Positions 15,322 to 62,038 of a DNA stretch of 64,000 bases are shown piece by piece; the first letter of the stretch is position 1; each line of letters starts with the position of its first letter. This DNA is from an uncultured Actinomycetes bacterium (GTDB lineage: Bacteria > Actinomycetota > UBA4738 > HRBIN12). The notes beneath the pieces were generated by a model. It ran no database searches, was not told where the DNA came from, and was given only the letters and a program-made list of their open reading frames with translations. The position numbers and the translations under genes are program-made. The stretch lies in assembly GCA_963705545.1 (NCBI GenBank), contig CAVPJX010000004.1, positions 207,418-271,417 on the forward strand, given 5' to 3'.

Positions 15322-15362
15322 TCGGGAACGGAGCGTCCTGAGGCTCGGCGCGGACCTCCGGC

Positions 15363-15368
15363 TACACT
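15363..15368 (+). promoter_or_regulatory. candidate -10 hexamer TACACT for tRNA-Arg
   Basis: TANNNT hexamer 10 nt upstream of the tRNA 5-prime end. Confidence 0.35.
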
Positions 15369-15378
15369 GGTCGTTCCG

Positions 15379-15451
15379 GCGCCGGTAGCTCAATGGATAG
15401 AGCATCTGACTACGGATCAGAAGGTTGGGGGTTCGACTCCCTCCCGGCGCG
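15379..15451 (+). tRNA. tRNA-Arg (anticodon ACG)
   Basis: Acceptor GCGCCGG/CCGGCGC, D-loop TAGCTCAATGGATAGAGC, anticodon loop CUACGGA, T-loop GGTTCGACTCC. Confidence 0.9.
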
Positions 15452-15493
15452 CAAAGCTCTGCGGAGATCCCGAGCTGATCGAGTCAGCGTCGG

Positions 15494-30557: not shown

Positions 30558-31031
30558 GTGCCGCGCGTCCGGGTGATCGGTTGTGGGAACCCCGACGCCG
30601 GGGACGATGCCGTCGGGCTCGTGGCGACGGACCGGGTGCGCGATCGCGTCGCCCCCGACGTCGAGGTCGTGACGGCTCCGACCGCGCTGCACGTGCTGGA
30701 CCTGCTCGAGGGCGCGCGCTCGGTGATCCTCGTCGACGCGGCGCGGACGGCCGGGGGCGAGCGTCCTCCCGGAACGATCGTCCGAGCCGAGGCCGGGCCG
30801 GACGGCCTGCCGGTCGGGCTCCGATCCTCGCTCTCCTCCCACGGGCTGGGGCTCGCCGAGGCGATCGGTCTGGCCGCGGCGCTGGGCGGCGGACCCCGTG
30901 TGGTGTTCCTGGGCGTCGAGGTCGGGGACGTGCGGGCGGGGCGCGGCCTGTCGCCGGCGGTCGAGGGCGCCCTCGCTGGCCTCGTCGACGCGATCGTGGA
31001 CGAGGCCGCCGCGGAGGAGGCGACGGCGTGA
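30558..31031 (+). CDS. hydrogenase maturation endopeptidase (HycI/HoxW family)
   Basis: VRVIGCGNPDAGDDAVG ... LVDA ... SSHGLGL motifs. GTG 30558 is chosen (TTG 30531 is an alternative). The stop overlaps the hypF GTG. Confidence 0.75.
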   Translation: MPRVRVIGCGNPDAGDDAVGLVATDRVRDRVAPDVEVVTAPTALHVLDLLEGARSVILVDAARTAGGERPPGTIVRAEAGPDGLPVGLRSSLSSHGLGLAEAIGLAAALGGGPRVVFLGVEVGDVRAGRGLSPAVEGALAGLVDAIVDEAAAEEATA

Positions 31032-33302: not shown

Positions 33303-33303
33303 G

Positions 33304-33585
33304 ATGTGTCTCGGGGTTCCGGGCAAGGTCACCGAGGTCTTCGAGGAGGACGGGATCCGGATGGGGACGGTCGACTTCGGCGGGATCCAACGCAAGGCCT
33401 GCCTGGAGTACGCGCCGGAGGTCGGGCTGGGTCACTACGTCGTGATCCACGTCGGGTTCGCGATCAGCGTGGTCGACGAGGAGGAGGCGGCTCGGTCGTA
33501 CGCCCTGCTCAAGGAGATGGACAACCTCGAGAACATCGACCTGCCGCAGGATCCCGACGGCGTCCGTCCGGAGGCGATCGCGTGA
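33304..33585 (+). CDS. hypC: hydrogenase assembly chaperone HypC
   Basis: 93 aa starting with the invariant MCLGVPGKV. Confidence 0.9.
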
Positions 33586-34689
33586 GGTACCTCGACGAGT
33601 ACCGGGACGACGACGTCGCGCGGTCCCTGCTCGACGAGATCGGGCGCGTGACCACGCGGCCGTGGACGATCATGGAGGTCTGCGGCGGGCAGACGCACAC
33701 GCTGATCCGCCAGGGGATCGATCAGCTCCTGCCGCCGAACGTCGAGCTCGTGCACGGTCCGGGATGTCCGGTGTGCGTCACGCCCGTCGCCCTGATCGAC
33801 GAGGCGATCGCGATCGCGACAGCGTCCCGACGCGATCCTCTGCTCGTTCGGCGACATGCTCCGCGTCCCGGGCTCGTCCGAGGACCTGTTCCACGCGCGG
33901 GCGGCGGGGGGTGACGCCCGGGTCGTGTACTCGCCGCTCGACGCGCTCGAGGTCGCGCGGCGCAACCCCGACAAGACGGTCGTGTTCTTCGCCGTCGGCT
34001 TCGAGACGACGGCCCCGGCGAACGCGATGGCCGTCCGCCAGGCGAAGCTCCTGGGCGTCACGAACTTCGCGCTGCTCGTGGCCCACGTCCTGGTGCCCCC
34101 GGCGATCATGGCGATCCTGGTGTCGCCGGGGAACCGCGTGCAGGGGTTCCTCGCACCGGGGCACGTCTGCGCGATCCAGGGGTGGCGCGAGTACGAGCCG
34201 ATCGCCCGGGACTTCGGCGTCCCGCTCGTCGTCACCGGCTTCGAGCCGGTGGATCTGTTGGAGGGGATCCGCATGCTCGTCCTGCAGCTGGAGCAGGGCC
34301 GGGCGGAGGTGGAGAACCAGTACGTGCGCGCCGTCCGGCGCGACGGGAACCCGGCCGCGCTCGCGGTCGTCGACGAGGTGTTCGAGGTCGCGGATCGCGC
34401 GTGGCGCGGGATCGGCGTGATCCCCGGGAGCGGCCTGCGCCTGCGCGAGGCGTACGCGGCGCACGATGCCGAGCTGCTGTTCCCGCGGGCGAGCGGCGTG
34501 CCCGCGAGCGAGTCGGAGGTCTGCATCGCCGGCGACGTCCTGCGTGGGCGCGCGAAGCCGCACGACTGCCCGGCGTTCGGGACGCTCTGCACGCCCGAGA
34601 CGCCCCTCGGCGCGCCGATGGTCTCGACCGAGGGAGCCTGCGCCGCCTACTTCCTGGCGGGCCGGACGCGCCAGGAGGCGCCGGCGTGA
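33582..34689 (+). pseudogene. hypD: hydrogenase maturation protein HypD, frameshifted as sequenced (one extra nt near 33817-33822)
   Basis: The N-terminal frame has EVCGGQTHT and [10 protein letters not shown] up to ...DEAIAIA. The conserved [19 protein letters not shown]... continues in the +1 frame (ORF 33856..34689). Length 1108 nt = 3n+1. Confidence 0.85.
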
Positions 34690-35757
34690 GCGACGTCGAG
34701 GCGCGCGAGATCCGGGGGTTCGCGATGCGGTGTCCGGTGCCGCTGCCTCCGGGCGCCTCCGTCCTGCTCGGCCACGGGAGCGGCGGGAAGCTCACGCAGC
34801 AGCTGATCCGCGACCTGTTCATCCCCGCCCTCGGGGCCGACCCCGAGCTCGCGCGCATGGGCGACGCGGCGATCCTGCCGCTGCCCGACGGCTCCCGGCT
34901 CGCCTTCACGACCGACGCGTTCGTCGTGACGCCTGCGTTCTTCCCCGGCGTCGAACATCGGCGAGCTCGCCGTGAACGGAACGGTGAACGACCTCGCGAT
35001 GATGGGCGCGGAGCCGCTGGCACTGTCGGCCGCGCTGATCCTCGAGGAGGGACTGGCCTTCGAGCGGCTGGGAGCGATCGTGGCGTCGATGGCGGACGCG
35101 TGCGATCGCGCCGGCGTCCGTCTCGTCACCGGCGACACCAAGGTGGTCGAACGGGGGGCGGCCGACGGCGTGTACATCACGACCTCGGGGATCGGGCTGG
35201 TCCCGTCAGGGGTGGAGGTGGGGCCGGAGCGGGCGCGACCCGCCGATCAGGTCTTGGTGACCGGGCCGATCGGCTCGCACGGCGTGGCGGTGATGTCGCG
35301 CCGCGCCGGGATCGCGTTCGAGACCGACGTCGTGTCGGACTCCGCCCCGCTCACGTCCGTCGTGCGCGCGATGCTGGCCGCCGGCGACGTGCGATGCCTA
35401 CGCGACGCGACCCGAGGCGGTGTGGCGAGCGTCCTGAACGAGCTCGCCGAGGCGAGCGAGGTCTCGATCACCGTTCACGGGACCGACGTCCCGGTCCTGC
35501 CCGGCGTGTACGCGGCATGCGAGATGCTCGGGCTCGATCCGCTCTACGTCGCGAACGAAGGCGTCGCCGTGGCGATCGTCGCTCCTGGGGACGCCGAGGC
35601 CGTCCTGGCGGCCGCCCGTTCGGATCCGCTCGGCGTGGATGCCCGTGTGGTCGGCGAGGTCGGCGAAGGGCCGGCCGCGGTCCGGGTGCGCACCGGCCTC
35701 GGCGCCACCCGGCCGTTGATCATGCTGGCCGGCGACCAGCTCCCCCGGATCTGCTGA
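34686..35757 (+). pseudogene. hypE: hydrogenase maturation protein HypE, frameshifted as sequenced (one extra nt near 34947-34951)
   Basis: The frame of 34686 reads ...LLGHGSGGKLT...FVVTPAFFPG. The conserved SNIGELAVNGTVNDLAMMGA... follows in the +1 frame (ORF 34972..35757) and ends in the HypE-specific PRIC. Length 1072 nt = 3n+1. Confidence 0.85.
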
Positions 35758-50324: not shown

Positions 50325-51602
50325 TCACCGCATCGAGGACGCGCCGGCCGCCTGGCGGGCCCGCTTCTTCGCGTACATCCGCTCGTCGGCGACGGCCATC
50401 AGCTGGTCGAGGGACCGCGGGTCCTCGGGGTCGAACCGCGAGACCCCCGCGGACATCGAGAGCAGGAACGGCCGATCCGGGTCGCGGTTCGAGTGGTCCA
50501 TCGATGCCTGGAGCCGACCAGCGGCGCCTTCGATCGCGGCGTCGGACTCCGCCGCGAACAGGATGCAGAACTCGTCGCCGCCCATCCGCGCGATCAGGTC
50601 GGACGCTCGGAACGTCGTCCGCAGCACGTAGGCGGTCTCGGCGATCAGCCAATCGCCGGTCGCATGTCCGAGGGTGTCGTTCACCTGCTTCAGTTCGTCG
50701 ACGTCGACGAACATCAGCGCGAGCGGTTGGTGGTTGCGTTTGGCGACCTCGAGGCGGTGCTCGGCCATCGGGACGAAGCCGCGCCGGTTCGGGAGCCGGG
50801 TGAGCGGATCGAGGGTCGCCTGACGCTGCAGCTCTCCCTGCAGCTCGACCACCCGGGTCCCGCCCTCGATCAGCGCGCTCTCCAGGCGTCCGAGCTCGTC
50901 GTCACGGGGCGCGGAGGCGAACATCGGCAAGCCGTTCTGCATGCGGTCGGCGTTCGCTTCCATCGCGCCGATCCGCGCCCCGATCCGTCGGGCGAGGAGC
51001 ACGATCAGGGCGAGCGAGATGAGGACGGCGATCGGCGTGCCGCCGACCGCGATCATGAACGAGAGGTGGCGCATCGTGTCCAGGTCCCGCCGCCGTTCCG
51101 TGAGCAGCTGGTCGGCGCGGTCCTGCATCTCGCCGAGGAGGACCCGGACGTCATCCATGGCCTGGCGACCCAGCTCGAGCTGCTCCGACAACTGCTGCTG
51201 ATCGGTCCGCTCCGTCACGGGAACGAACGGTCGCAGGCCCGACAGGAGGTGGATCCGCTCGTAGGCGAGCGGTCGGAGCCGCGCGATCCGGCCGAACTGG
51301 GAGCTGTCCGGTCCCGTGAGCGACTCGAGGGTGTCGAGGTCGCTCCCGATCCGGCCAACCCCCACGTCGTACGGGTCCAGGAAGCTGTCGTCGCCGGTCA
51401 GCAGGTACCCGCGCATCCCCGTCTCCGCGTCGATGAGGTCGTTCAAGATCGCCTGCACGGCATCCCGGATGAGGTACGCCTCCCGCTCCGCGTCGAGCGT
51501 CGCGTTCGTGCGTTGTCGGGACAGCACGAGGAGGGTCGTCGATGCGACGAGCACGACGACGGGCACGATCAGGACCGCCAGGAACTTGTTCCGAAGGCTC
51601 AC
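50325..51602 (-). CDS. CHASE3-sensor diguanylate cyclase (GGDEF)
   Basis: AGGAGGA precedes GTG 51602. Layout: TM helix, CHASE3-like region (ETGMRGYLLTGD), second TM helix, GGDEF domain with RxxD-free ARMGGDEFCILF active site. Confidence 0.85.
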   Translation of the reverse strand: MSLRNKFLAVLIVPVVVLVASTTLLVLSRQRTNATLDAEREAYLIRDAVQAILNDLIDAETGMRGYLLTGDDSFLDPYDVGVGRIGSDLDTLESLTGPDSSQFGRIARLRPLAYERIHLLSGLRPFVPVTERTDQQQLSEQLELGRQAMDDVRVLLGEMQDRADQLLTERRRDLDTMRHLSFMIAVGGTPIAVLISLALIVLLARRIGARIGAMEANADRMQNGLPMFASAPRDDELGRLESALIEGGTRVVELQGELQRQATLDPLTRLPNRRGFVPMAEHRLEVAKRNHQPLALMFVDVDELKQVNDTLGHATGDWLIAETAYVLRTTFRASDLIARMGGDEFCILFAAESDAAIEGAAGRLQASMDHSNRDPDRPFLLSMSAGVSRFDPEDPRSLDQLMAVADERMYAKKRARQAAGASSMR

Positions 51603-51686
51603 CGATCCTCCTGCTCCGACGGTTACAGGCATCGGAAGCGCGACGCGGCCCCTTGACCCGGGGTTGTCTACCGGTCGGTAGATGAC

Positions 51687-51692
51687 GATAAT
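51687..51692 (+). promoter_or_regulatory. candidate -10 hexamer GATAAT; predicts a leaderless FAR-HAD mRNA
   Basis: 7 nt upstream of ATG 51700, in a locally AT-richer stretch. Confidence 0.3.
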
Positions 51693-51699
51693 CTGCCGC

Positions 51700-53993
51700 A
51701 TGGTAGAGACGGGTCCCCGGACCGAGGGATCGATCGTCGATCGGCTCGCCGGCTCGCGCGTCCTGCTGACCGGCGTCACCGGGTTCCTCGGCCAGGTCGT
51801 GTTCGAACGGCTGCTCCGGGACTTCCCCGACACCCGGATCGTCCTGCTGGTGCGATCGCAGACCGGTTCGCCCTCGCTCGAGCGCGTCCGCTACCTGTTC
51901 CGCAAGCCGTCGTTCGACGAGCTCCGCGCGAGCGTCGGCGACGGCGGACTGTCGGCGATGCTCGACGAACGGGTGGAGGTGATCGACGGCGACTTCTCGC
52001 GCGGGGTGCCCACGCTCCCGGGCGACCTGGACGTCGCGATCCACTCGGCCGCGACCGTCTCCTTCGACCCGCCGATCGACGAAGGCTTCCAGACGAACCT
52101 GCTCGGCGCCGTGAACCTCTACCGCGGCGTGATCGATGCCGGCGCGCGTCCGAACCTCGTCCACGTCTCCACCGCCTACGTCGCGGGCGTGACGAAGGGG
52201 GTCGTGCCCGAGGCGACGCTCGATCACCGGGTCGATTGGAGGACCGAGGCGGAGCTCGCGATGCGCGCCCGGGCCGACGTCGAGGCGCAGTCGCGCAGGC
52301 CCGAGATGCTCGGCGCCTTCATGGAGCGGGCGCGCAAGGAGCACTCGCGCGCCGGGCCGATGACCGTCGCCGAGGACGCCGAGCAGCGCCGGAAGGACTG
52401 GGTGAGCACCCGGTTGACGGAGTACGGACGCGCCCGCGCTCGCTCGCTCGGTTGGCCCGACGTGTACACGTTCACGAAGGCGATGGGCGAGCGCGCCGTC
52501 GAGGAGCTCGCCGAGGCGGAGGGACTGTCGCTCTCGATCGTGCGGCCCTCGATCATCGAGAGCGCCCTGCTCCACCCGGCTCCGGGCTGGATCGACGGCT
52601 TCAAGATGGCCGACCCGATCATCCGGGCCTACGGCCTCGGGCAGATCCCGGAGTTCCCCGGCATCCCGGAGGGGATCGTCGACATCATCCCGGTCGATAT
52701 GGTCGTGAACGCGATCCTGGCGGTCGCGGCCACGCCGCCGGACCCGGGCCGAGCCCGGCACTTCCACGTCAGCTCCGGGTCCCGGAACCCGTTGCAGTTC
52801 CATCAGCTGTACGCGATCACGCGCGAGTACTTCGAGGCGCACCCGTTGCCCGAGCGCGGCCGCGGGGAGCACAAGGTCCCGGAGTGGACGTTCCCCGGGA
52901 CGCTCACGGTCGAGCGGATGATCCGCCGGGCCGAACGGCTGACGGACGTGGCCGAGAAGGTCGTGACGCACCTGCCGAAGTCCAAGGCGATGCGTGACGC
53001 GGTGGCGCGCGTGGACCGGGACAAGGCGCGCGTCGACTTCGTGAAGCGCTACTCGGACCTGTACGGCGCCTACACCGAGGCCGAGGTGATCTACACCGAC
53101 GACCGGATGCTCGAGCTGTTCGAGTCGCTCTCGGTCGAGGACCGAGCGCGGTTCCCGTTCGACTCGGCGATGGTCGACTGGAAGTACTACCTGCAGGACG
53201 TCCATTGCCCGGCGGTGACGCAGAGCCTGCGGGAGCTCTCGCGGCGGGGGCGTGAGAAGCCGAGCGTGCAGATCCGCGAGCAGGAGGAGCCGGTCGTCGC
53301 GGTATTCGACATGGAGGGCACGATCATCACCTCGAACGTGGTCGAGTCCTACGTCTGGTCGCGGATGGGAGACCTGCCACCCGACGGAGTGGCCCTCCGA
53401 GCTCGTGAGCGTCTTCGGGCGGATCCCGCGGTACCTGCAGATCGACCGGCGCGACCGCGGGGAGTTCCTGCGGACGTTCTTCCGCCGGTACGAGGGCGCG
53501 AGCGTCGCAGGGGATCGAGCGTCTGATCGATCATCACGTCGGCGAGTTCATGCTCCAGAAGGCGAGCGCCGCCGCGATCCGGCGGATCCGTGAGCACCGG
53601 GCCGCGGGGCACCGCACGGTGCTGATCACCGCCGCGGCCGAGATCTTCGTCCGGCCGCTCGCGCCGCTCTTCGACCTGGTGATCGGATGCGAGCTGGAGG
53701 AGCGGGACGGCCGCTACACCGGGTTCATGTCGACGCCGCCCCTCGTCGGCGAGGCCCGCGCAGCCTGGTTGCGCCGCTACGCGGAGCAGGAGGGCGTCGA
53801 CCTGAAGGGGTCCTACGGCTATGCCGACTCCTACTCCGACCTGCCGCTGCTCCGCGCCGTGGGCAATCCCGTGGCCGTCTCGCCGGACTCCGCGCTGTAC
53901 CGCCACGCGCGGCGCCGACGGTGGCCGATCGAGGAGTGGGAGATGTCGAAGGGCATGCCCCGCGTCCGCTTCCCGAAGGCGGCGGTGCGCTGA
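51700..53993 (+). pseudogene. fatty acyl-CoA reductase (NAD_binding_4) fused to a HAD-IB phosphatase-like domain; two frameshifts as sequenced (extra nt in CCC 53380-53382 and in GGGG 53510-53513)
   Basis: LLTGVTGFLGQVVFERLL and YTFTKAMGE (YxxxK). HAD motif I VAVFDMEGTI. The sequence ...YVWSRMGDLP(P) continues as TEWPSELVSVFGRIPRYLQIDRRDRGEFLRTFFRRYEGASVAG in the +1 frame, then IERLIDHHVGEFMLQKASAAAIRR...YADSYSDLPLL in the next +1 frame. Length 2294 nt = 3n+2. ATG 51682 is an alternative start. Confidence 0.8.
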
Positions 53994-55201
53994 TGGCGCT
54001 GTCGCTCGAGCTGTTCCGATCGGCGCCGCGGTACCTGACCGCGCGTGCGGTCGGGTCGAAGGTCCCGGGGCTCGTCGCGGGGCCGCTCGCGCCCATCCGT
54101 CTCGCGAACCTCCGCGACCCCGTGCCGCCGCGCGAGGGGTGGGCCCGCGTGAAGCCGCTCCTGTCCGGGATCTGCGGCTCGGACCTCGCGACGCTCGCCG
54201 GGCGGTCGTCCTTCTACTTCTCGCCCCTCGTCTCCATGCCGTTCGTGCCGGGGCACGAGGTGGTCGGCGAGCTCCTCGACGCCGTCGACGGGTTCCGCAC
54301 GGGTCAGCGCGTCGTGCTCTCGTCGGTGCTGGCCTGCGCCGCCCGCGGTGAGGTTCCTCCCTGCGCGAACTGCGCCGCGGGCGATGTGGGGCGGTGCGAC
54401 CGCGTGACGGTCGGCGAGCTGAGGGCGGGGCTGCAGACCGGCTACTGCGCCGACGTGACCGGCGGATGGAGCCGGATGATGCTCGCCCACCGTTCCCAGC
54501 TGGTCGCGGTGCCGGACGCGATCGACGATCGCTCCGCCGTCTTGATCGAGCCGCTCGCCTGCGCGATCCATGCCGCCCTGCGCGCGAACATCCAGCCGGG
54601 ATCGTCGGTGTTCGTCGTCGGCGCCGGGACCGTCGGGATCCTCACGCTGATCGCGGTCAAGATGCTGACCGAGGCCGCCCACGTGACGGTGGCGGCCAAG
54701 CACACGCGTCAGCGCGCCGCCGCGAAGCTGGCCGGTGCCGACGTCGTGATCCCGCCCGAGCACGCCGTGAAGGCGGTGCGGCGGTCGGCGCACGCGGTCA
54801 AGCTCTCGCCCGAGCGCGGCCCGGACTTCCTGCTCGGCGGCGTGGACGTGGCGATCGAGTGCACCGGTTCGAAGAGCGCCCTCGACCTCGCCCTGCGGAC
54901 CACGCGCGCGGGCGGCCGGGTCGTCGTCTCCGGCATCCCGGGGCCCGGCGCCGACCTGACGCCGCTGTGGTTCCGCGAGCTCGAGCTCGCCGGCGCCTAC
55001 ACCGGCGGCACCGAGCGGATCGAGGGCGCCGAGCGGCGTACGTTCGACCTGGCGGTCGACCTGGCGGCGGGCCTGCCGATCCTGGAGCAGTTGGTGGGGG
55101 CGACCTACCCGCTGGACCGCTGGCGCGAGGCGCTCGACCACGCGATGGGCGCCGGCCGGCTGGGGACGTTCAAGGTGGCGTTCGCGCCACAGGAGAGCTG
55201 A
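53993..55201 (+). CDS. zinc-dependent MDR-family alcohol dehydrogenase
   Basis: 402 aa. ICGSDL, VPGHEVVGE, structural-zinc Cys cluster CANCAAGDVGRC, and Rossmann VFVVGAGTVG. The start overlaps the upstream stop (TGATG). Confidence 0.85.
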   Translation: MALSLELFRSAPRYLTARAVGSKVPGLVAGPLAPIRLANLRDPVPPREGWARVKPLLSGICGSDLATLAGRSSFYFSPLVSMPFVPGHEVVGELLDAVDGFRTGQRVVLSSVLACAARGEVPPCANCAAGDVGRCDRVTVGELRAGLQTGYCADVTGGWSRMMLAHRSQLVAVPDAIDDRSAVLIEPLACAIHAALRANIQPGSSVFVVGAGTVGILTLIAVKMLTEAAHVTVAAKHTRQRAAAKLAGADVVIPPEHAVKAVRRSAHAVKLSPERGPDFLLGGVDVAIECTGSKSALDLALRTTRAGGRVVVSGIPGPGADLTPLWFRELELAGAYTGGTERIEGAERRTFDLAVDLAAGLPILEQLVGATYPLDRWREALDHAMGAGRLGTFKVAFAPQES

Positions 55202-55217
55202 AGGAGCGAGACGACCG

Positions 55218-56805
55218 ATGCCGAGGCCCGGATTCGTGTTGGAGGTCGACGAACGGACCCCGCCCCTGTTGGTGAACGAGGGCGAGGGATACCGGATGCA
55301 GCGGTTCCCGCTGGGATCCCGCGTGGTCTATCCGCCCGACGCGCTCCCGGGGATCCGCGACCTGAACGCCGCGATCCGACAGGCCCTGCTGCATCCGATC
55401 GACACGGAGCCACTCCCGGAGCTCCTGGTACGCGGGCATGAAGCTCACGATCGCGATCGACGACATCTCGGTCCCGCTGCCGCCGATGCGGACGCCCGAC
55501 ATCCGTCAGCGGATCATCGAGCACGTCGTCGAGCTGGCCGCGCGCGCCGGCGTCGAAGACGTGAAGCTGATCGTGGCGAACGCGCTCCACCGGAGGATGA
55601 CCGCCGACGAGATCCGCCGGATGGTCGGCGAGCGGATCTTCCGGTCGTTCTGGCCGAAGGATCTGGGGAACTTCGACGCGGAGGACCGCGATACCCTCCT
55701 CGAGATCGGCAAGACCGACGAGGGCGAGATCGTCGAGATCTCGAAGCGTGCGGCCGAATCGGACCTGATCGTCTACGTCAACGTGAACCTGGTCGCGATG
55801 GACGGCGGCCACAAGTCCGTCGCGATCGGCCTCGCCGGGTACCGGTCGCTGAGGTACCACCACAACGTGCACACGATGTTGCACTCGCGCTCCTACATGG
55901 ACCCGCGTCCCGGCCACAGCGCGATCGCGGACTCGGCGACGCGCATGGGGCGCCTGCTGCGCGACAGCGGCGTGAAGATCTTCCAGATCGAGACCACGGT
56001 CAACGGCGAGACGTTCCCGTCGAACCTCGGCTTCCTGAACAAGCGTGAGTGGGAGTGGTCGAGCTTCGACCAGGGGCTGATGATGGCCGCGAAGAAGACG
56101 AACGACCTCGCGCCGCCGCGCGTCCGCCGCGAGTTCTACCGGCGGATCCAGGCGCCGTACCGGGTGACCGGGATCAACGCCGGCGAGGTGGAGGCCGTCC
56201 ACGAGCGGACCCTCACGAACCTACACCGCCAGCAGCTGGTCGAGGTCCAGGGCCAGTCCGACGTCGTCGTCTTCGGCGTGCCGTACCTGGGTCCGTACAA
56301 CGTGAACTCGGTGATGAATCCGATCCTGGTTCACTGCCTGGGCCTCGGGTACCTGTTCAACATGTACCGGAACCAGCCGCTCGTGAAGCCGGGCGGCGTC
56401 GCGATCCTGTTCCACCCGGTGCCGTGGGAGTTCCACCAGATCCATCACCCGAGCTACATCGACTTCTTCGAAGAGGTGCTGCGCGACTCCACCGATCCGG
56501 CCACGATCGAGTCGAAGCACGAGGAGCGGTACGCGACCGACCCCTGGTACATCCACCTGTACCGGACGAGCCACGCGTACCACGGGGTGCACCCGTTCTA
56601 CATGTGGTACTGGGGCGCGCACGGCCGCGATCACTGCGGCGACGTGATCTTCGTCGGCGGTGATCCGAAGGCGGTGGCGCGCCTCGGGTATCGCCGCGCC
56701 GACTCGCTCCGCGACGCGCTCGAGATGGCGAAGGACACGGTCGGATCGAGCCCCTCGATCACGTATTTCCACGCGCCGCCGCTGATGATCGCCGACGTGG
56801 TCTGA
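55218..56805 (+). pseudogene. LarA-like (lactate racemase N-terminal domain / DUF2088) protein, frameshifted as sequenced (extra G in GGG 55434-55436)
   Basis: The frame of ATG 55218 reads ...HPIDTEPLPELLVRG. The +1 frame continues MKLTIAIDDISVPLPP... (ORF 55438..56805). Length 1588 nt = 3n+1. The family call comes from overall resemblance, from memory, not from a search. Confidence 0.55.
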
Positions 56806-56814
56806 GGAGCCTCG

Positions 56815-57723
56815 ATGGGGATGCGCGACGAGCTGAGGGAGATGGCCAAGGGGTTCCGTTGGGGCCATCGCCCGATGGTGCCCCGCTCCGCGGAGCCGTT
56901 CCGCGAGGAACGGGCGGACGGCGGATTCCCGACCGATTGGGCGCGGACCGAGGCGGGCACGCTCGTCCGACAGGCGATCATGAACGGCCCGATGACCGCG
57001 ATCCTGCGATCCGAGCTGTCGCTCCGCGTCTACGGCCTCGACCACCTCGACGGCGTGAAGGGTCCGGTGCTGTTCTTCTCGAACCACTCGAGCCACCTGG
57101 ACGCGACGCTGATCCTGGCGACGCTCCCGGATCGGTGGCAGCGCAAGACGGCCGTCGGGGCGGCCCGCGACTACTTCTTCGACGTGTGGTGGCGGCAGGC
57201 GTTCACGGCGCTGGTCTACGCCGGCTTCCCGATCGATCGTGCGAAGGGTGGCCAAGGCGCGACCGACAAGGCCCGCGAGCTGGTCCGCGACGGCTGGTCG
57301 ATCGTCGTGTTCCCCGAGGGCACGCGATCGGCCGACGGGCACGTCCAGCGTTTCCGCCACGGGTCGGCTCGCCTCTGCCTCGAGCTCGGCATCCCGGCGG
57401 CGCCGGTCGCGATCGTCGGCGCGTACCAGGCGATGCCGCGCGGCCGCTTCTGGCCGCTGGCGGGCCGACCGACCGTGACCGTTCGGTACGGCGCCCCGAT
57501 CGTGCCGGCCGAGGGCGAGTCCCATCAGGACGTCTCGCGCCGGATGGCGCAGGCGATCGCCGAGCTCTTCGACGAGGACCGCACCACGTGGTTCGAGTCC
57601 CTCGGGCGGGCGGAGCGCGGCGAGACCCCGTCGCTCGCCGGACCGCAGGGTCCGGACTGGCTGCGGCGGTGGGAGGGCTCGCGCCCACTCCCGCGGCGCG
57701 GCGAGCCGCCGGCCTGGGGCTGA
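56815..57723 (+). CDS. lysophospholipid / 1-acylglycerol-3-phosphate acyltransferase family protein (PlsC-type)
   Basis: 302 aa. HX4D motif NHSSHLD, plus FPEGTRS and IPAAPVAIVG blocks. Confidence 0.8.
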   Translation: MGMRDELREMAKGFRWGHRPMVPRSAEPFREERADGGFPTDWARTEAGTLVRQAIMNGPMTAILRSELSLRVYGLDHLDGVKGPVLFFSNHSSHLDATLILATLPDRWQRKTAVGAARDYFFDVWWRQAFTALVYAGFPIDRAKGGQGATDKARELVRDGWSIVVFPEGTRSADGHVQRFRHGSARLCLELGIPAAPVAIVGAYQAMPRGRFWPLAGRPTVTVRYGAPIVPAEGESHQDVSRRMAQAIAELFDEDRTTWFESLGRAERGETPSLAGPQGPDWLRRWEGSRPLPRRGEPPAWG

Positions 57724-57725
57724 CG

Positions 57726-58340
57726 ATGCCGCGGACCGGTGGCGAGGAGCGACGGGTCGCGATCATCGAACAGGCGATCCGTCGGTTCGGTCGCGACGGC
57801 TACGCCGGGGCGAGCCTCGAGCAGATCGCCTCCGCGGTCGGCGTTCGCAAGCAGACGCTCCTGTACTACTTCCCGACGAAGGAGGCGCTGCTGGAGGCGT
57901 GCCTCGCGGCCGCCGGGGAGCAACTCGCCCGGACGATCGGCAAGGCGCTCGAGGGGCGCGAGACGTACTGGGAGCGCGCCGAGGCCGTGATCCACGCGAT
58001 CTTCCAGCTGGCGGAGGCCTGGCCCGAGTTCCCGATGTTCATCCGCGAGGCCGGCCGGCTGGGACCGGACGCCTTCGCCCACGTCGCGGGCGTCCTGGAG
58101 CCACTCCGTCGGCGGGCGATCGACTTCCTGCAGGTCGGGATGGACAACGGCGAGATCCGCAAGCAGGACCCCGCGCTCCTGCTGTTCACGCTCTACACCG
58201 GCGTGGTGGGCTCGCTCACCGAGGCGAGCGTGCTCAACGTCGTGGTCGGGGCCGACAAGGGCCGGGCCTCGCTGAAACGTCGTGAGCGGGAGGTGCTCGC
58301 GTTCGTCCGCGGCGCGCTCCAGCCAGCCATGGGGGAGTAG
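57726..58340 (+). CDS. TetR-family transcriptional regulator
   Basis: 204 aa. HTH GYAGASLEQIASAVGVRKQTLLYYFPTKEAL. Confidence 0.9.
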   Translation: MPRTGGEERRVAIIEQAIRRFGRDGYAGASLEQIASAVGVRKQTLLYYFPTKEALLEACLAAAGEQLARTIGKALEGRETYWERAEAVIHAIFQLAEAWPEFPMFIREAGRLGPDAFAHVAGVLEPLRRRAIDFLQVGMDNGEIRKQDPALLLFTLYTGVVGSLTEASVLNVVVGADKGRASLKRREREVLAFVRGALQPAMGE

Positions 58341-58372
58341 TCACTCCGCGGCCGGAACGCCAGGATGGGTCC

Positions 58373-61300
58373 ATGGACCCGGACGTCACGCGCGAGGAGC
58401 GCCGCGTCGTGACCGTGCTGGTGGCCGACCTCGCCGGCTCGACGGCGCTCGGCGAGCGCCTGGACCCCGAGGAGCTGCGCGTCGTGGTCGGCGACGCCAT
58501 CGCGCGGATGGTCGGCGCGGTCGAGGCGTTCGGCGGGACCGTGAAGGACCTCGCCGGCGACGGGATCCTCGCGCTCTTCGGTGCGCCGACGGCGCACGAG
58601 GACGATCCGGAGCGTGCGATCCGCGCCGGGCTCCGGATCGTCGAGGACGTGGGCGAATACGCACGGGAGGTCGAGCGGGCGTGGGCGATCGCGGGCTTCG
58701 GGGTCCGGGTCGGGGTCAACACCGGGCCGGTCGTCACCGGGTCGGTCGGAGCCGGAGACCGGGTCGAGTACGGGGCGACCGGCGACACCGTGAACGTGGC
58801 CGCGCGGCTGCAGGCGGCGGCCGAGCCTGGGCAGGTCCTCGTCGGGTCGGGGTCCCGTCTGCTGAGCGGATCGGCCTTCATCTGGGGCACACCGCGCGAG
58901 CTCGTCCTCAAAGGCAAGGAGCGGCCGGTGTCCGCGTCCGCCGTGTCGGGCGTCACCGGGGCCTCCGGTCGCCGTCGCGAGGTCGAGGAGCACCACACGC
59001 GCCTCGTCGGCCGCGAACGGGAACTGTCGCTCGCGATGGAGAGCGTGGATGCGGCGCTGGGAGGGTCTGGTCACGTCCTGTTCCTGACGGGCGAGCCCGG
59101 CATCGGGAAGACGCGGCTGCTCGCGGAGCTCCGCGAGGCCTTCGAGGGCGGGCGGCCCGTGAGAGGTGCGCCCGTGTGGCTGGAGGGGCGCTGCGTCTCC
59201 TACGGCGAATCGATGCCGTATTGGCCGTTCCGCGATCTCCTACGGTCGTGGCTCGGCCTCCCGATCGACGAACCGGAGCTGCGCGTCCGCGTGACGCTGC
59301 AGCGCGAGGTCGGGCGCCTGTTCGGTGAGCGCGCGGCCGGATACCGGGCCTACCTCGCCACGCTGCTCGGGCTCCCGCTCGAGCCGGACGACCAGGCGAA
59401 GGCCGCCGAGCTCTCACCCGAGGCGATGCAATATCGGACGTTCGAGGTCGTGCGCCAGCTGATCGGCCGCCTCGCCAACGATGGGCCGGTCGCGGTGGCG
59501 CTGGAGGACCTCCACTGGGCGGACCCGACCTCGTTGCAGCTGCTGGAGCAGCTGCTCCCCGACACGGAGGAGCTGCCGCTCCTGCTGGTGGTCACGTCGC
59601 GGCCCGAGCCCACCCACCCGTCCTGGCGAGTGAAGGAGCGCTCCGAGCGCGAGCTCGCGCACCGCACGCGCGAGCTCGTCTTGGCCGCGCTCGGCGCCGA
59701 CGCCGGTCGTGACCTGCTGAACGAGCTGGTGGGTGAAGGGGTCCTGCCGCTTGAGCTCGAGGAGCGGATCCTCGAGCACGCCGACGGGAACCCCTTCTTC
59801 CTGGAGGAGCTCGTCCGGTCGCTCATGGACGCGGGGGCCCTCACGCCCGTGGACGGCGGTTGGCGGTTCGACCATGACGAGGCGATCGAGGTGCCCCCGA
59901 CGGTCGAGAAGGTGATCCTGGCGCGGATCGATCGGCTCGATCGTCCCGCGCGCGACGCGCTGATGGCGGCGTCGGTCCTCGGTCGACGCTTCGGTTTGCC
60001 GTTGCTGGAGGCGGTCGCGACCGAGGACGAGGACGGGATCCGGCCGCTGCTCACCGAGCTGCAGCGCGCCGACCTGATCCGGGAGGGTCGCCGCTGGCCC
60101 GATCCGGAGTACCGCTTCAAGCACGCACTGATCCAGGAGACCGCCTACCGAACGCTCGTGGCGGGTGAGCGTGAACGGCTCCACCGCCGCGCGGCGGAGT
60201 GGCTCGAGGCCCGGTACGCCGGGTCGGAGGAGGACGTCGCGGGGCTGCTCGCCTACCACTGGATGGGGGCGTCGGATCGCGACCATGCCGCGCGGTACCT
60301 GACGATCGCCGGCGATCGCGCGCGCCAGGAGTACGCACTCGACGAGGCGATCGCGCACTATCGCGAGCTCCTGCCGATCCTCGAGGAGCGTGGGGAGCGC
60401 CGCGAGATCGCCCTCGTGCTCTTCAAGCTCGCGCTGGCGCTGCACATGTCGCTGCGCTTCGCCGAGGCGAACGACGTGTACCAGCAGGCGTTCGAGCGGT
60501 GGGACCGGCTGGAGCCCTGCGCGGCGCCCACCGCGACGCTCCGCGTCGCCACGAGCTACCTGCCGAACGACCCGGACCCGCGCTCGGCGATCGCCTGGCC
60601 GAACATCCAGCTCTGCATGCAGCTGTTCGACCGCCTGGTCGAGGCGTGGCCGGAGCGGACGATCGTCCCGTCCTTGGCCGAGCGCTGGGAGATCGCCGAC
60701 GATGGGCTCCGCTACGTCTTCCACCTTCGCGAGGGCGCGGCGTGGTCGGACGGCACGCCGCTCACGGCGCACGACGTGGAGTTCGGGATCAAGCGGGTCC
60801 TGAACCCCGACGCGCCGGGTTCCTCGGTCGCGATCTATTTCGTGCTCGAGAACGGCCAGGAGTACTACCTGCGCCGCAACGCGGACGCGGATCGGATCGG
60901 CGTCCGGGCGCTCGACGATCGCACGGTGGAGTTCCGGCTCGTGGCGCCCGCGCCGTACTTCATGAGCGTGATGAACCGGCCGGACGGCGGCCCGCAGCCT
61001 CGCCACGCGATCGGGGCCGATCCGGACGGATGGGCGGTCGTCGGCGCCCAGGTCGTGAGCGGACCGTTCCGGACCGTGAGCCGGACCGACGACGTCTTGG
61101 TGCTAGAGCGGCGCGACGACTACGCGGGCACGAGGCCGGGCGACGTCGGCCGCGTCGAGTACGTGCGCAGCGGGGTCCTGGACGCGCTCGGGCCCTACGA
61201 CCACGACGAGCTCGACATCGTGACGACCCGCTACACACCCCTGGTGGCCGACCTCATGCCTCGGGTGGCGCAGGACGCGATCCTGGGTCCGGCCGCGTGG

Positions 61301-62038
61301 TCCGCCTACCTCGCCTTCGATCATGCGGACGCCGTCGTGTCGAACCTCGACCTCCGGAAGGCGCTGGCGCACGCGATCGACCGCAGCGGCTTCGTCGACG
61401 TCGGCGAGAGCATCGTGATCGCGACCGGGGGGATCGTCCCCCCCGCGCTTCAGGGCCATACGCCCGACATCGTGCTGCCGTTCGATCCCGACCTGGCCCG
61501 CAAGCATCTCCAGGCCTCGGGTCTGGACGACGTCGAGCTCACGGTCGTCGGCACGGAGTTATGGGTGTCCCCGTTCCTCGAGCGGATCACCGAGATGTGG
61601 CGCGAGGTCTTGGGCGTCCGCGCCGAGGCGCGGGAGGTGTCGGTCGAGGAGGCGCTCGCCGCCGGGCGGATGATCAACCTCGGGCCGATCTACGTCACGG
61701 GCTGGCTCCCGGGCTACGCCGACCCCGAGTACTACCTCCGGCTCCTCTTCCACTCGGATAGCCGCACGAACGAGGGCGGCTTCTCGCACGCCCCGTTCGA
61801 TGAGCTGATCGAGCGCGCGCGCCAGGAGCGAAGCGATCGGGATCGGCTCAGGCTGTACCACGAGGCCGACCGGATGGCGGTCGCCGATCAGGTCGCCGTG
61901 ATCCCGGTCCTCTACGTGCGAAGCATGGCGTTCGTGAAGCCGTGGGTCGAGGGGTGGTGGGAGTTCGGGAAGTCGTCGGCGAACTTCGCGGATCTGCGGA
62001 TCGATCCCACGTCGCCCCGGGCGACCGGCGCCGGCTAG
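58373..62038 (+). CDS. class III cyclase / STAND (AAA_16) ATPase / TPR / family-5 solute-binding-protein fusion
   Basis: 1221 aa with no signal peptide or TM. VLVADLAGSTA, LAGDGILALFGAP, TGDTVNVAARLQ. P-loop GEPGIGKTRLL. The C-terminal ~500 aa resemble OppA/DppA/NikA-type SBP_bac_5 (SLAERWEIADDGLRYVFHLREGAAWSDGTPLTAHDVEF...). Confidence 0.8.
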   Translation: MDPDVTREERRVVTVLVADLAGSTALGERLDPEELRVVVGDAIARMVGAVEAFGGTVKDLAGDGILALFGAPTAHEDDPERAIRAGLRIVEDVGEYAREVERAWAIAGFGVRVGVNTGPVVTGSVGAGDRVEYGATGDTVNVAARLQAAAEPGQVLVGSGSRLLSGSAFIWGTPRELVLKGKERPVSASAVSGVTGASGRRREVEEHHTRLVGRERELSLAMESVDAALGGSGHVLFLTGEPGIGKTRLLAELREAFEGGRPVRGAPVWLEGRCVSYGESMPYWPFRDLLRSWLGLPIDEPELRVRVTLQREVGRLFGERAAGYRAYLATLLGLPLEPDDQAKAAELSPEAMQYRTFEVVRQLIGRLANDGPVAVALEDLHWADPTSLQLLEQLLPDTEELPLLLVVTSRPEPTHPSWRVKERSERELAHRTRELVLAALGADAGRDLLNELVGEGVLPLELEERILEHADGNPFFLEELVRSLMDAGALTPVDGGWRFDHDEAIEVPPTVEKVILARIDRLDRPARDALMAASVLGRRFGLPLLEAVATEDEDGIRPLLTELQRADLIREGRRWPDPEYRFKHALIQETAYRTLVAGERERLHRRAAEWLEARYAGSEEDVAGLLAYHWMGASDRDHAARYLTIAGDRARQEYALDEAIAHYRELLPILEERGERREIALVLFKLALALHMSLRFAEANDVYQQAFERWDRLEPCAAPTATLRVATSYLPNDPDPRSAIAWPNIQLCMQLFDRLVEAWPERTIVPSLAERWEIADDGLRYVFHLREGAAWSDGTPLTAHDVEFGIKRVLNPDAPGSSVAIYFVLENGQEYYLRRNADADRIGVRALDDRTVEFRLVAPAPYFMSVMNRPDGGPQPRHAIGADPDGWAVVGAQVVSGPFRTVSRTDDVLVLERRDDYAGTRPGDVGRVEYVRSGVLDALGPYDHDELDIVTTRYTPLVADLMPRVAQDAILGPAAWSAYLAFDHADAVVSNLDLRKALAHAIDRSGFVDVGESIVIATGGIVPPALQGHTPDIVLPFDPDLARKHLQASGLDDVELTVVGTELWVSPFLERITEMWREVLGVRAEAREVSVEEALAAGRMINLGPIYVTGWLPGYADPEYYLRLLFHSDSRTNEGGFSHAPFDELIERARQERSDRDRLRLYHEADRMAVADQVAVIPVLYVRSMAFVKPWVEGWWEFGKSSANFADLRIDPTSPRATGAG

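What the first reader, a model, noticed from the sequence alone, without database searches (positions are those of the whole stretch)
51700..58340. Compact FAR-HAD / Zn-ADH / LarA-like / PlsC-type acyltransferase / TetR cluster: candidate pathway for a non-standard lipid
Seen. Five co-directional genes with junctions of -1 (TGATG overlap), 16, 9 and 2 nt:
1. A fatty acyl-CoA reductase domain (TGFLG and YxxxK) fused to a HAD-IB phosphatase-like domain.
2. A zinc MDR alcohol dehydrogenase.
3. A ~529-aa LarA-like (DUF2088) protein.
4. An HX4D acyltransferase.
5. A TetR regulator.

Established knowledge:
- FARs make fatty aldehydes and alcohols.
- LarA-family enzymes racemise or epimerise 2-hydroxy acids using a nickel-pincer cofactor.
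- PlsC-type enzymes acylate hydroxyl acceptors.

Inference (speculative): the set could reduce a possibly 2-hydroxylated acyl chain to an alcohol or 1,2-diol, adjust its stereochemistry, then acylate or dephosphorylate it. That would give a wax-ester, diol-based or ether-type lipid backbone rather than ordinary glycerophospholipid. Long-chain diol lipids are known from some thermophilic deep-branching bacteria.

I am not aware of a characterised pathway with this gene set. FAR-HAD fusions resemble mycobacterial AcrA1-type proteins (from memory).
Basis: inference. Interest (0 to 1): 0.6.

Follow-up and report, generated by a model that had tools for sequence, protein, structure and literature searches.

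The report
Actinobacterial elb-type ether-lipid operon
This repressor-controlled five-gene operon is the actinobacterial, reshuffled counterpart of the myxobacterial "elb" ether-lipid genes; its lactate-racemase-like member matches the unexplained ElbC, and here it is kept under strong selection in a lineage that has no genes for the nickel cofactor this enzyme family normally needs.

Summary
The five co-directional genes are real, with the stated junctions of -1, 16, 9 and 2 nt. As sequenced, the FAR-HAD gene carries two extra bases and the LarA-like gene carries one. These are most likely assembly indels.

The FAR-HAD / Zn-ADH / LarA-like / acyltransferase order is kept in all 14 relatives fetched and in every one of 80 further actinobacterial loci that is long enough. 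Cultured carriers include Kribbella, Nocardioides, Micromonospora, Actinomadura and Frankia.

The LarA-like protein belongs to NCBIfam NF052592 (LarAH14/15/16). Group 15 of that family contains MXAN_1529, which is ElbC of the Myxococcus xanthus ether-lipid operon. The other parts (FAR, HAD, AGPAT-like acyltransferase) match ElbD and ElbB domain by domain.

I found the TetR operator pair and promoter at 51664-51707.

LarB and LarC sit beside the cluster in 13 of 80 loci. In contrast, this genome and a subclade of its family lack larB, larC and larE, yet keep the gene at dN/dS of about 0.05.

The ether-lipid product and the role of the LarA-like enzyme are inferred, not shown.

This scan has already reported the same operon and the same reading on other DNA, in at least 61 genomes.

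The parts
51664..51692 (+). Promoter: -35 TTGTCT, 17-nt spacer, -10 GATAAT
   Evidence: It is the only sigma-70-like site in 51400-58600. It is conserved in relatives (alignment A3).
51667..51682 (.). Operator 1, palindrome TCTACCGGTCGGTAGA, overlapping the -35 box and the spacer
   Evidence: The motif TCTRCC-N4-GGTAGA occurs at only two sites in the window, against 0.15 expected. Its arms are invariant in 10 relatives. It lies upstream of gene 1 in 32 loci, all of which have the TetR gene, and in none of the TetR-less loci.
51692..51707 (.). Operator 2, TCTGCCGCATGGTAGA, overlapping the -10 box, the likely transcript start and the start codon
51700..53993 (+). Gene 1: fatty acyl-CoA/ACP reductase (NAD_binding_4 + Sterile) fused to a HAD-IB phosphatase domain. 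About 764 aa once the two extra bases are read through. Probably leaderless.
   Evidence: Pfam. NCBIfam TIGR01490 HAD-IB on the intact orthologue. The alignment shows invariant TGxTGF, YTxTK, DxD/ExGT and DSxxD. It lies in one frame in all 14 relatives.
53380..53388 (+). Frame break 1 in gene 1: one extra base (GACGGAG here, GAC-GAG in both congeners)
53505..53513 (+). Frame break 2 in gene 1: one extra base at CGCAGGGG
53993..55201 (+). Gene 2: zinc MDR dehydrogenase of the polyol / secondary-alcohol type, 402 aa
   Evidence: Pfam ADH_N / ADH_zinc_N. The best NCBIfam neighbours are idonate, scyllo-inosose and threonine dehydrogenases, all below their cut-offs. The catalytic motifs and the four-Cys structural zinc motif are visible in the translation.
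55218..56805 (+). Gene 3: LarA homologue of group 14 (LarAH14 / ElbC type), 528-529 aa once the extra base is read through
   Evidence: NF052592 scores 885 bits against a cut-off of 740 on the intact orthologue, and 788.8 bits on the window's own larger piece. PDB profile match to 9Q2U at E 4e-36. Fold match to 9Q3K at E 7e-23, TM 0.64/0.70.
55427..55437 (+). Frame break in gene 3: one extra base before ATGAAGCTC
56815..57723 (+). Gene 4: PlsC/AGPAT-type acyltransferase, 302 aa
   Evidence: PF01553 at E 3e-22. TIGR00530 domain match. HX4D and FPEGTRS motifs.
57726..58340 (+). Gene 5: TetR-family repressor, 204 aa, last gene of the operon
   Evidence: TetR_N. Its presence tracks the operator motif across loci.

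Best explanation
This is a TetR-autorepressed operon, the actinobacterial version of the myxobacterial elb (ether lipid biosynthesis) gene set.

Shown:
- One promoter (51664-51692) is covered by two TCTACC-N4-GGTAGA operators.
- It drives five genes: FAR-HAD, Zn-dehydrogenase, LarAH14 (the ElbC homologue), an AGPAT-type acyltransferase, and the TetR itself.
- The four enzyme genes travel together across Actinomycetota.

Inferred working:
- The FAR domain reduces an acyl thioester to a fatty aldehyde or alcohol.
- The acyltransferase acylates a glycerol-3-phosphate or DHAP-type acceptor (or the sn-2 position of an alkyl-glycerol phosphate).
- The LarA-like enzyme performs a redox-neutral, hydride-borrowing step on a secondary alcohol of the glycerol-phosphate intermediate. 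This is not a 2-hydroxy-acid racemisation, and it permits or completes formation of the 1-O-alkyl bond.
- The Zn-dehydrogenase takes the place of the ElbE/ElbA short-chain reductases and reduces a keto or aldehyde intermediate.
- The HAD-IB domain removes the phosphate.
- The product is an alkyl(acyl)glycerol-type ether lipid.
- The repressor probably releases the operators on binding a lipid intermediate.

[quoted passage not shown] The three frame breaks in the window are most likely assembly errors.
For: Homology of the LarA-like gene to ElbC:
- Gene 3 is an NF052592 LarAH14/15/16 member.
- MXAN_1529 is listed as LarAH group 15.
- elbA-E = MXAN_1531-1527 and elbD = MXAN_1528, so MXAN_1529 = elbC. 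The review PMC9131029 calls it a 'protein of unknown function'.

The same parts in other arrangements:
- A 48%-identical family member sits directly upstream of a 1561-aa NAD_binding_4 + AMP-binding + PP-binding + Acyltransferase protein (the ElbD architecture), followed by an SDR.
- A 52%-identical member sits in Zn-ADH / LarAH / DAG-kinase-like / FAR::acyltransferase fusion / HAD / PlsY. Its parts are 33-43% identical to the window's.
- A 44%-identical member is followed by an Acyltransferase + GPAT_C gene.

Synteny:
- 14 of 14 relatives and 80 further loci from the more than 595 matched stretches in genome contigs.

Link to NPN:
- larB + larC lie within 6 kb of the cluster in 13 of 80 loci, in two different arrangements.
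- 63 of 70 sampled genomes with the gene have LarC, against 146 of 231 without it.
- The homologues of the ribose-binding Asp, the catalytic His, the tethering Lys and the Ni-ligand His (D82, H124, K199, H214/H215 of the intact orthologue) are invariant.

Organism link:
- Rubrobacter xylanophilus Rxyl_2107 is in group 14.
- Rubrobacterales are reported to have dominant mixed ether/ester lipids (title of Sinninghe Damste 2023, cited in PMC11150832).

Regulation.

Selection: dN/dS of 0.04-0.12 for all six segments within the genus.
Against: - No lipid data exist for this organism, and none that I could read for any cultured carrier of the group-14 cluster.
- The elb pathway is itself unsolved. 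Only ElbD (and probably ElbE) has genetic support, and ElbC was never tested alone.
- The window lacks the acyl-CoA-ligase and ACP domains of ElbD. It has a Zn-ADH instead of the ElbA/ElbE SDRs.
- ElbD homologues are known in bacteria where no ether lipids were detected, such as Pontiella (PMC11868695).
- larB, larC and larE are not found in this 96.5%-complete genome, nor in five other genomes of the family that were searched for all three. This argues against a nickel-pincer mechanism here.
- Two of the five genes are not open as sequenced.
- Frankia LarAH14 loaded with NPN showed no activity, although only on seven 2-hydroxy-acid assays.
Confidence: 0.55

Rival explanations
1. It is a fatty-alcohol or ester lipid pathway without an ether bond. 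FAR makes a fatty alcohol. The acyltransferase esterifies it, or a polyol phosphate, giving a wax-ester-like or acyl-polyol lipid. The ADH and the LarA-like enzyme tailor the polar acceptor, and the HAD domain dephosphorylates it.
For: - FAR plus an acyltransferase is sufficient for ester products.
- The ADH is closest to polyol and sugar-acid dehydrogenases.
- ElbD homologues do not always go with ether lipids.
Against: - Bacterial wax synthases known to me are WS/DGAT enzymes, not PlsC-type (my own knowledge, not tested here).
- The recurring partners are glycerolipid enzymes: GPAT_C, PlsY and DAG-kinase-like.
- The only genetically tested relative of the set, elb, affects ether lipids.
Confidence: 0.2
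2. In this genome the operon is decaying. The frame breaks are real, following the loss of the nickel-pincer cofactor genes, and the cluster no longer functions.
For: - There are three 1-nt insertions in two genes.
- larB, larC and larE are not found.
Against: - dN/dS between the window and its congeners is as low as between the two intact congeners: 0.05 for the LarA homologue and 0.04-0.12 overall.
- There is no stop codon or other lesion apart from the three insertions.
- Congeners G001 and G002 also lack LarC, and G002 also lacks LarB and LarE (G001 was not searched for these two). Both have every gene in one frame.
- Split genes of this kind occur in 10 of 19 loci from one series of MAGs with very long contigs ('MFD') and in 0 of 61 other loci.
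- The hyp genes of the same window show the same pattern of split ORFs.
Confidence: 0.1
3. A 2-hydroxyacyl chain is reduced to a 1,2-diol, a LarA-type racemase sets the C2 configuration, and the diol is acylated to give a diol-based lipid.
For: - All five enzyme classes could be fitted to it on paper.
- The LarA family is so far known only for 2-hydroxy-acid racemisation and epimerisation.
Against: - The His174, Arg75 and Lys298 equivalents are missing.
- Frankia LarAH14 was inactive on seven 2-hydroxy acids.
- No fatty-acid 2-hydroxylase is encoded in or next to the cluster in any locus examined.
- The nearest tested system makes glycerol ethers.
Confidence: 0.05
4. It is a non-membrane function: synthesis of a small diffusible lipid-like signal or of a cofactor precursor, sensed by the TetR.
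For: - TetR control and placement between signalling genes: CHASE3-GGDEF upstream and a cyclase-STAND protein downstream.
- M. xanthus ether lipids also act as developmental signals.
Against: - The signalling neighbours are conserved only in close relatives.
- TetR is absent from most carriers.
- The enzyme core is extremely conserved (63-98% identity for the LarA homologue across the phylum), as for a housekeeping function.
Confidence: 0.1

Closest known systems
Myxococcus xanthus elbABCDE ether-lipid operon (MXAN_1531-MXAN_1527; Lorenzen et al. 2014, as reviewed in PMC9131029 and PMC13012113)
   Same: It has a LarA-family protein (ElbC / gene 3), a HAD phosphohydrolase (ElbB / C-terminal half of gene 1), a FAR-like reductase (ElbD N-terminus / gene 1), an AGPAT-like acyltransferase (ElbD C-terminus / gene 4) and an NAD(P) dehydrogenase, all in one operon.
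   Different: - The window has no acyl-CoA-ligase or ACP domains.
- FAR is fused to HAD instead of to the acyltransferase.
- A zinc MDR dehydrogenase replaces the two SDR proteins (non-homologous).
- A TetR with its operators is added.
- The LarA homologue is of group 14, not group 15.
LarAH14 of Frankia sp. (Franean1_4168), LarAH group 14 of Desguin et al. 2020 (PMC7583248); NCBIfam NF052592
   Same: It is the same family above the curated cut-off and has the same residue pattern: Asp, His108, Lys184 and His200 kept, and Arg75, His174 and Lys298 absent. It has the same neighbours (COG0204, COG0560, COG1063, COG3320).
   Different: It is an orthologue in an uncultured lineage that, unlike most carriers, has no larB, larC or larE. 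The function of the reference protein is itself unknown.
Single-histidine LarA homologues LarA_Sp and LarA_Bw (PDB 9Q2U/9Q3K, 9Q3J; PMC12611868)
   Same: They are the best sequence and fold matches. They share one catalytic His, the tethering Lys, and the C-terminal YAT..YI..YR..A.H..H.F motif region.
   Different: Sequence identity is only about 20-22%. Those proteins have Asn at the His174 site and Lys for Arg75, and a carbohydrate-type gene context. Here the segment is deleted, Arg75 is Leu/Ile, and the context is lipid.
FAR / GNPAT / AGPS ether-lipid route of animals and of M. xanthus MXAN_1676-1674
   Same: It combines a fatty acyl reductase with a glycerol-phosphate/DHAP-type acyltransferase. 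FAR::acyltransferase fusions occur in relatives of this cluster.
   Different: No AGPS (FAD-dependent alkyl-DHAP synthase) gene is in the cluster. A LarA homologue occupies the place of the unexplained step.

Membership tests
LarA superfamily (DUF2088) | Lar_N domain and the two-domain LarA fold | tested here: met
   PF09861 at E 4e-30. All 19 significant PDB fold matches are LarA-family chains; the best is 9Q3K at E 7e-23. The model's pLDDT is only 71, and the active-site loops have low confidence.
NCBIfam NF052592, LarAH14/15/16 | Score above the curated cut-off of 740 bits | tested here: met
   885.2 bits for the intact orthologue, which is 98% identical. 788.8 bits for the window's own larger piece.
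2-hydroxy-acid racemase/epimerase (LarA proper) | Two catalytic histidines (His108 and His174 of LarA_Lp) | tested here: not met
   The His108 equivalent (H124) is invariant. The His174 position falls in a deletion in the profile alignments to Mar2, LarA_Ip and LarA_Sp and is '-' for group 14 in Table S3 of PMC7583248.
2-hydroxy-acid racemase/epimerase (LarA proper) | Carboxylate- and phosphate-binding Arg75 and Lys298 | tested here: not met
   DDIS-L aligns with D-x-T-R, so Arg is replaced by Leu/Ile. Table S3 gives I/L and '-'. Lys298 was not mapped independently here.
Nickel-pincer (NPN) enzymes | Tethering Lys184, Ni-ligand His200 and ribose-binding Asp72 | tested here: met
   K199, H214/H215 and D82 are invariant in 14 sequences and align to these positions.
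Nickel-pincer (NPN) enzymes | The cofactor biosynthesis genes larB, larC and larE are present in the genome | tested here: not met
   - Own genome (96.5% complete, 9 contigs): no PF01969 match.
- The best TIGR00268 match scores 44.6 bits against a cut-off of 150.
- The second AIRC gene lies between purB and purD and scores 21 bits against LarB's cut-off of 175.
- The same holds in G002, G010, G019, G210 and G316.
- LarC-positive relatives have LarB next to LarC.
elb ether-lipid operon | ElbC-type LarA homologue in the operon | tested here: met
elb ether-lipid operon | ElbD multidomain protein (FAR-like, acyl-CoA ligase, ACP, AGPAT) | tested here: not met
   FAR and AGPAT-type domains are present on separate genes. 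No AMP-binding or PP-binding domain was found in the five genes.
elb ether-lipid operon | HAD phosphohydrolase (ElbB) and SDR reductase (ElbE) | tested here: inconclusive
   A HAD-IB domain is present with an intact nucleophile Asp and motif IV. Orthology to ElbB was not tested, because no M. xanthus sequence was on hand. There is no SDR; a Zn-ADH stands in its place.
elb ether-lipid operon | Required for alkyl/alkenyl glycerol ether lipids | not testable with these tools
   This needs lipid analysis of mutants.
TetR-repressed operon | Palindromic operator at the promoter that co-occurs with the repressor gene | tested here: met
   - Two sites lie at 51667-51707 over the -35/-10 boxes.
- The motif is present in 32 of 33 TetR-bearing loci that include the region upstream of gene 1, and in none of the TetR-less loci.
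- The only other genomic site is inside an SdhA-like ORF.
- Binding itself was not tested.

The most novel reading that the evidence does not exclude
The ElbC/LarAH14 protein is the missing enzyme of the AGPS-independent bacterial ether-lipid route. It would be a LarA-fold, hydride-borrowing catalyst that makes or enables the 1-O-alkyl bond on a glycerol-phosphate intermediate. In this lineage it would do so without LarB, LarC or LarE, that is, with a different cofactor or none. That would be a second catalytic mode for the LarA fold.
Probability: 0.2. Interest if true: 0.85.

Novelty: new variant of a known kind. Interest (0 to 1): 0.6.

Why it matters
How aerobic bacteria make ether lipids through the ElbD route is unsolved, and no enzyme is assigned to the ether-forming step.

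Recognising ElbC and its actinobacterial counterpart as LarA-family proteins gives a concrete candidate. In many genomes these proteins sit next to the nickel-pincer cofactor genes. It also suggests the first nickel-pincer enzyme outside 2-hydroxy-acid chemistry.

The cluster occurs in about a quarter of a 301-genome sample of the phylum, including culturable genera. Ether lipids may therefore be far more common in soil Actinomycetota than lipid surveys suggest, which bears on the sources of environmental alkylglycerol and branched-tetraether biomarkers.

The cofactor-less subclade found here is a natural experiment on whether the enzyme really needs the nickel cofactor.

Tried and rejected
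- Context look-ups of several distant family representatives gave nothing useful. The contigs were too short or had no DNA (P0026, P0018, P0002, P0048).
- Two representatives lie in archaeal-looking contigs with no lipid genes (P0056, P0016). The family is therefore not tied to lipid genes everywhere.
- No M. xanthus sequence could be fetched, so ElbB/ElbD-to-window identities were not measured. The ElbC link rests on the published locus tags plus an ElbD-architecture neighbour in a metagenomic contig.
- The CarF/PEDS1 search (PF10520) found nothing, but it rang in no control genome either, so it says nothing.
- A second PurE-like gene was considered as LarB and rejected: it lies in the pur operon and scores 21 bits.
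- A third operator-like palindrome in the genome lies inside an SdhA-like ORF and is taken as chance.
- The Rubrobacterales lipid paper (PubMed 36868099) is not held. Only its title was used.
- No residue distinguishes LarC-less from LarC-bearing relatives at the cofactor positions in alignment A1.

Full report
**1. What is in the sequence**

On the + strand, Pfam finds five genes:
- A NAD_binding_4 + Sterile reductase followed by a HAD (PF12710) domain.
- A zinc MDR dehydrogenase.
- A Lar_N protein.
- A PF01553 acyltransferase.
- A TetR.

The first and third genes are not open as sequenced. Gene 1 runs through frames 1, 2 and 0, and gene 3 through frames 0 and 1. Aligned with two genomes of the same genus, the window has three uncompensated one-base insertions, at about 53386, about 53509 and 55427-55437. 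In all 14 relatives fetched, each of these genes lies in one frame.

**2. Are the breaks real?**

Within the genus, dN/dS is low for every segment:
- 0.05 for the LarA homologue.
- 0.04-0.06 for the HAD part.
- 0.09-0.12 for FAR.
- 0.10 for ADH.
- 0.07-0.08 for the acyltransferase.

The window's lineage is no more relaxed than the two intact congeners.

Among the 80 loci from public genomes, split genes of this kind occur in 10 of 19 loci from one MAG series with very long contigs. They occur in none of the other 61. The hyp genes at 30.9-35.8 kb show the same pattern of split ORFs (first noted in e1-4593243). I therefore take the breaks as assembly indels, with a probability of about 0.85. 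Reads could not be consulted.

**3. Regulation**

The region upstream of gene 1 holds the only promoter-like site in 7.2 kb: TTGTCT, 17 nt, GATAAT, at 51664-51692. Two copies of TCTRCC-N4-GGTAGA lie at 51667-51682 and 51692-51707. These are the only two in the window, against 0.15 expected.

The block is nearly invariant in ten relatives, while the flanks are not. Across all loci held, the motif lies just upstream of the FAR-HAD gene in 32 loci, all of which carry the TetR gene. It is missing from every TetR-less locus. The only other copy in the genome is inside an SdhA-like ORF.

The ORF's first ATG (51682) is inside operator 1. The conserved ATG/GTG at 51700 sits about 8 nt after the -10 box. 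The transcript is therefore probably leaderless, and operator 2 covers its start.

**4. Conservation**

The LarA homologue was found in 38 of 41 relatives at 69-98% identity. The whole five-gene order is kept in all 14 relatives fetched.

In the best 80 loci the order FAR-HAD / ADH / LarA-like / acyltransferase is kept wherever the contig reaches. These include Kribbella, Nocardioides, Micromonospora, Actinomadura, Actinoallomurus, Thermomonospora, Frankia and Jiangellaceae. TetR is confined to the closer, uncultured relatives.

In an even sample of 301 genomes of the phylum (at least 90% complete), 70 have the gene above the family cut-off.

**5. What the LarA-like protein is**

The protein scores 885 bits against NCBIfam NF052592, 'LarAH14/15/16 family', whose cut-off is 740. 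Its best solved relatives are the single-histidine LarA homologues 9Q2U/9Q3K and 9Q3J. The profile E-value is 4e-36, and the fold match has E 7e-23 with TM 0.64/0.70.

Residues kept and lost:
- The equivalents of Asp72, His108, Lys184 and His200 are invariant (D82, H124, K199, H214/H215 of the intact orthologue).
- His174 falls in a deletion.
- Arg75 is Leu/Ile.

Desguin et al. 2020 (PMC7583248) placed this type in group 14, which includes Frankia, Kribbella flavida, Ilumatobacter, Acidimicrobium ferrooxidans and Rubrobacter xylanophilus Rxyl_2107. They recorded the same residue pattern. They listed COG0204, COG0560 and COG1063 (88% each) and COG3320 (50%) as its neighbours. They found Frankia LarAH14 inactive in seven 2-hydroxy-acid assays and labelled the group 'unknown function'. 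They remark that groups lacking H174 and K298 might catalyse another hydride-mediated reaction.

**6. The link to ether lipids**

The same supplement lists MXAN_1529 of M. xanthus in group 15. The elb operon is elbA-E = MXAN_1531-1527 (PMC13012113), and elbD = MXAN_1528 (PMC11980068). MXAN_1529 is therefore elbC, which the review PMC9131029 describes as a 'protein of unknown function' lying next to elbD.

In that operon:
- ElbB is a HAD phosphohydrolase.
- ElbD is FAR-like + acyl-CoA ligase + ACP + AGPAT-like.
- ElbA and ElbE are SDRs.

elbD insertions strongly reduce alkyl and vinyl ether lipids.

Independent of the locus tags, three more distant family members show related contexts:
- A 48%-identical member lies directly upstream of a 1561-aa protein with exactly the ElbD domain set, followed by an SDR.
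- A 52%-identical member lies in Zn-ADH / LarAH / DAG-kinase-like / FAR::acyltransferase / HAD / PlsY. Its parts are 35% (FAR), 33% (HAD), 43% (ADH) and 36% (acyltransferase) identical to the window's.
- A 44%-identical member is followed by an Acyltransferase + GPAT_C gene.

FAR, HAD and the acyltransferase are thus fused in three different ways (FAR-HAD; FAR-AT; FAR-ligase-ACP-AT), always with the LarA homologue beside them. That is the pattern expected of one pathway. I found no paper in the searchable library that connects ElbC with the LarA family.

**7. The cofactor puzzle**

Evidence for use of the nickel-pincer nucleotide (NPN):
- larB and larC lie within 6 kb of the cluster in 13 of 80 loci. 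They are divergent upstream in Micromonospora, Actinoallomurus and one Actinomadura, and downstream in other Actinomadura and several MAGs.
- Of the 70 sampled genomes with the gene, 63 have LarC, against 146 of the 231 without it. Related genomes are not independent, so this is descriptive only.

Evidence against it in this lineage:
- The seven exceptions all belong to the window's own family: G000, G010, G019, G149, G210, G243 and G316. Several of these have 2-10 contigs.
- Together with G001, G002, G011, G017 and G023, they form a set in which LarC is not found.
- In the six genomes tested for all three genes (own, G002, G010, G019, G210, G316), LarB and LarE are also absent above their cut-offs.
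- LarC-positive relatives have LarB next to LarC.
- The cofactor-contacting residues are unchanged in these genomes, and selection is strong.

Either the enzyme does not need NPN for its role here, or the cofactor is obtained by some other route.

**8. Reading**

The homology statements are well supported: an elb-type operon, ElbC = LarA homologue, and a TetR-controlled promoter. The product (an alkylglycerol-type ether lipid) and the step assigned to the LarA homologue are inference. They rest on:
- The elbD genetics.
- The glycerolipid partners.
- The loss of the acid-binding and second catalytic residues.
- The reported ether/ester lipids of Rubrobacterales, an order that includes a group-14 carrier (title only, and whether R. 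xylanophilus is among the species studied is from my memory).

**9. Status within the scan and data caveats**

I reached the elb/ElbC reading before consulting the scan's notes by sequence and words. Those notes show that the same operon and the same reading have been reported at least 63 times, in at least 61 genomes. They are not independent evidence.

The tallies include genomes flagged as unpublished (G023, G029, G041, G085, G153). No conclusion rests on them alone. G023 is one of the LarC-less carriers, and G029 is one of the carriers with LarC.

Noticed in passing
window 30898-35757: The hypF, hypD and hypE regions each appear as two overlapping ORFs in different frames (for example 30898-31647 / 31494-33302, 33306-33914 / 33856-34689 and 34466-34975 / 34972-35757). 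Together with the three breaks in the lipid operon, that makes six frame breaks in 64 kb.
   Followed up: partly
window 58373-62038: This is a 1221-aa protein with a class III cyclase domain, AAA_16 (STAND), TPR and a family-5 solute-binding domain, and no export signal was noted. It follows the TetR gene here and also in relatives L018, L019, L029, L036, L037, L040 and L044.
   Followed up: partly
window 50325-51600 (- strand): A CHASE3-GGDEF diguanylate cyclase is transcribed divergently from the operon promoter. It is conserved there only in the closest relatives (L018, L019, L029).
   Followed up: no
L118:2400-5243 and L119:784-3627: A 947-aa protein in marine metagenome contigs joins a LarAH14/15/16-type domain (35% identical to the window's) to a chlorophyll a/b-binding domain. 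This suggests a eukaryotic algal member of the family.
   Followed up: no
L120:10001-11539 and L121:10001-11539: Family members with an NGGWKS motif lie in archaeal-looking contigs (histone-fold, CDC48, and small GTPases of Arf/Roc type) without any lipid-gene neighbours.
   Followed up: no
L124:8868-16439: This is a third arrangement of the same parts: Zn-ADH, LarA homologue, DAG-kinase-like lipid kinase, FAR::acyltransferase fusion, free-standing HAD and PlsY. The contig has 61% G+C and its taxon is unknown.
   Followed up: partly
L043:2139-2194: In one relative, the operator pair (two motif matches, 2139-2154 and 2179-2194) lies between the FAR-HAD and ADH genes, where there is an intergenic gap of about 350 nt.
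   Followed up: no
L116:3430-5428; also L070, L071, L082, L085, L092, L095, L096, L098, L103, L104, L058, L113: larB and larC lie directly beside the lipid cluster. In Micromonospora they are accompanied by an EryCIII-like glycosyltransferase gene.
   Followed up: partly
L114:5704-6441 and 15199-15960 (Kribbella): A HisA/HisF-family (His_biosynth) gene is translationally coupled upstream of the FAR-HAD gene in 11 Kribbella-type loci (12 loci match, counting the paralogue), with a second paralogue downstream.
   Followed up: no
G000:C1:1092351-1092366: This is the only other exact copy of the operator motif in the genome. It lies inside an SdhA-like ORF and is taken as chance.
   Followed up: yes
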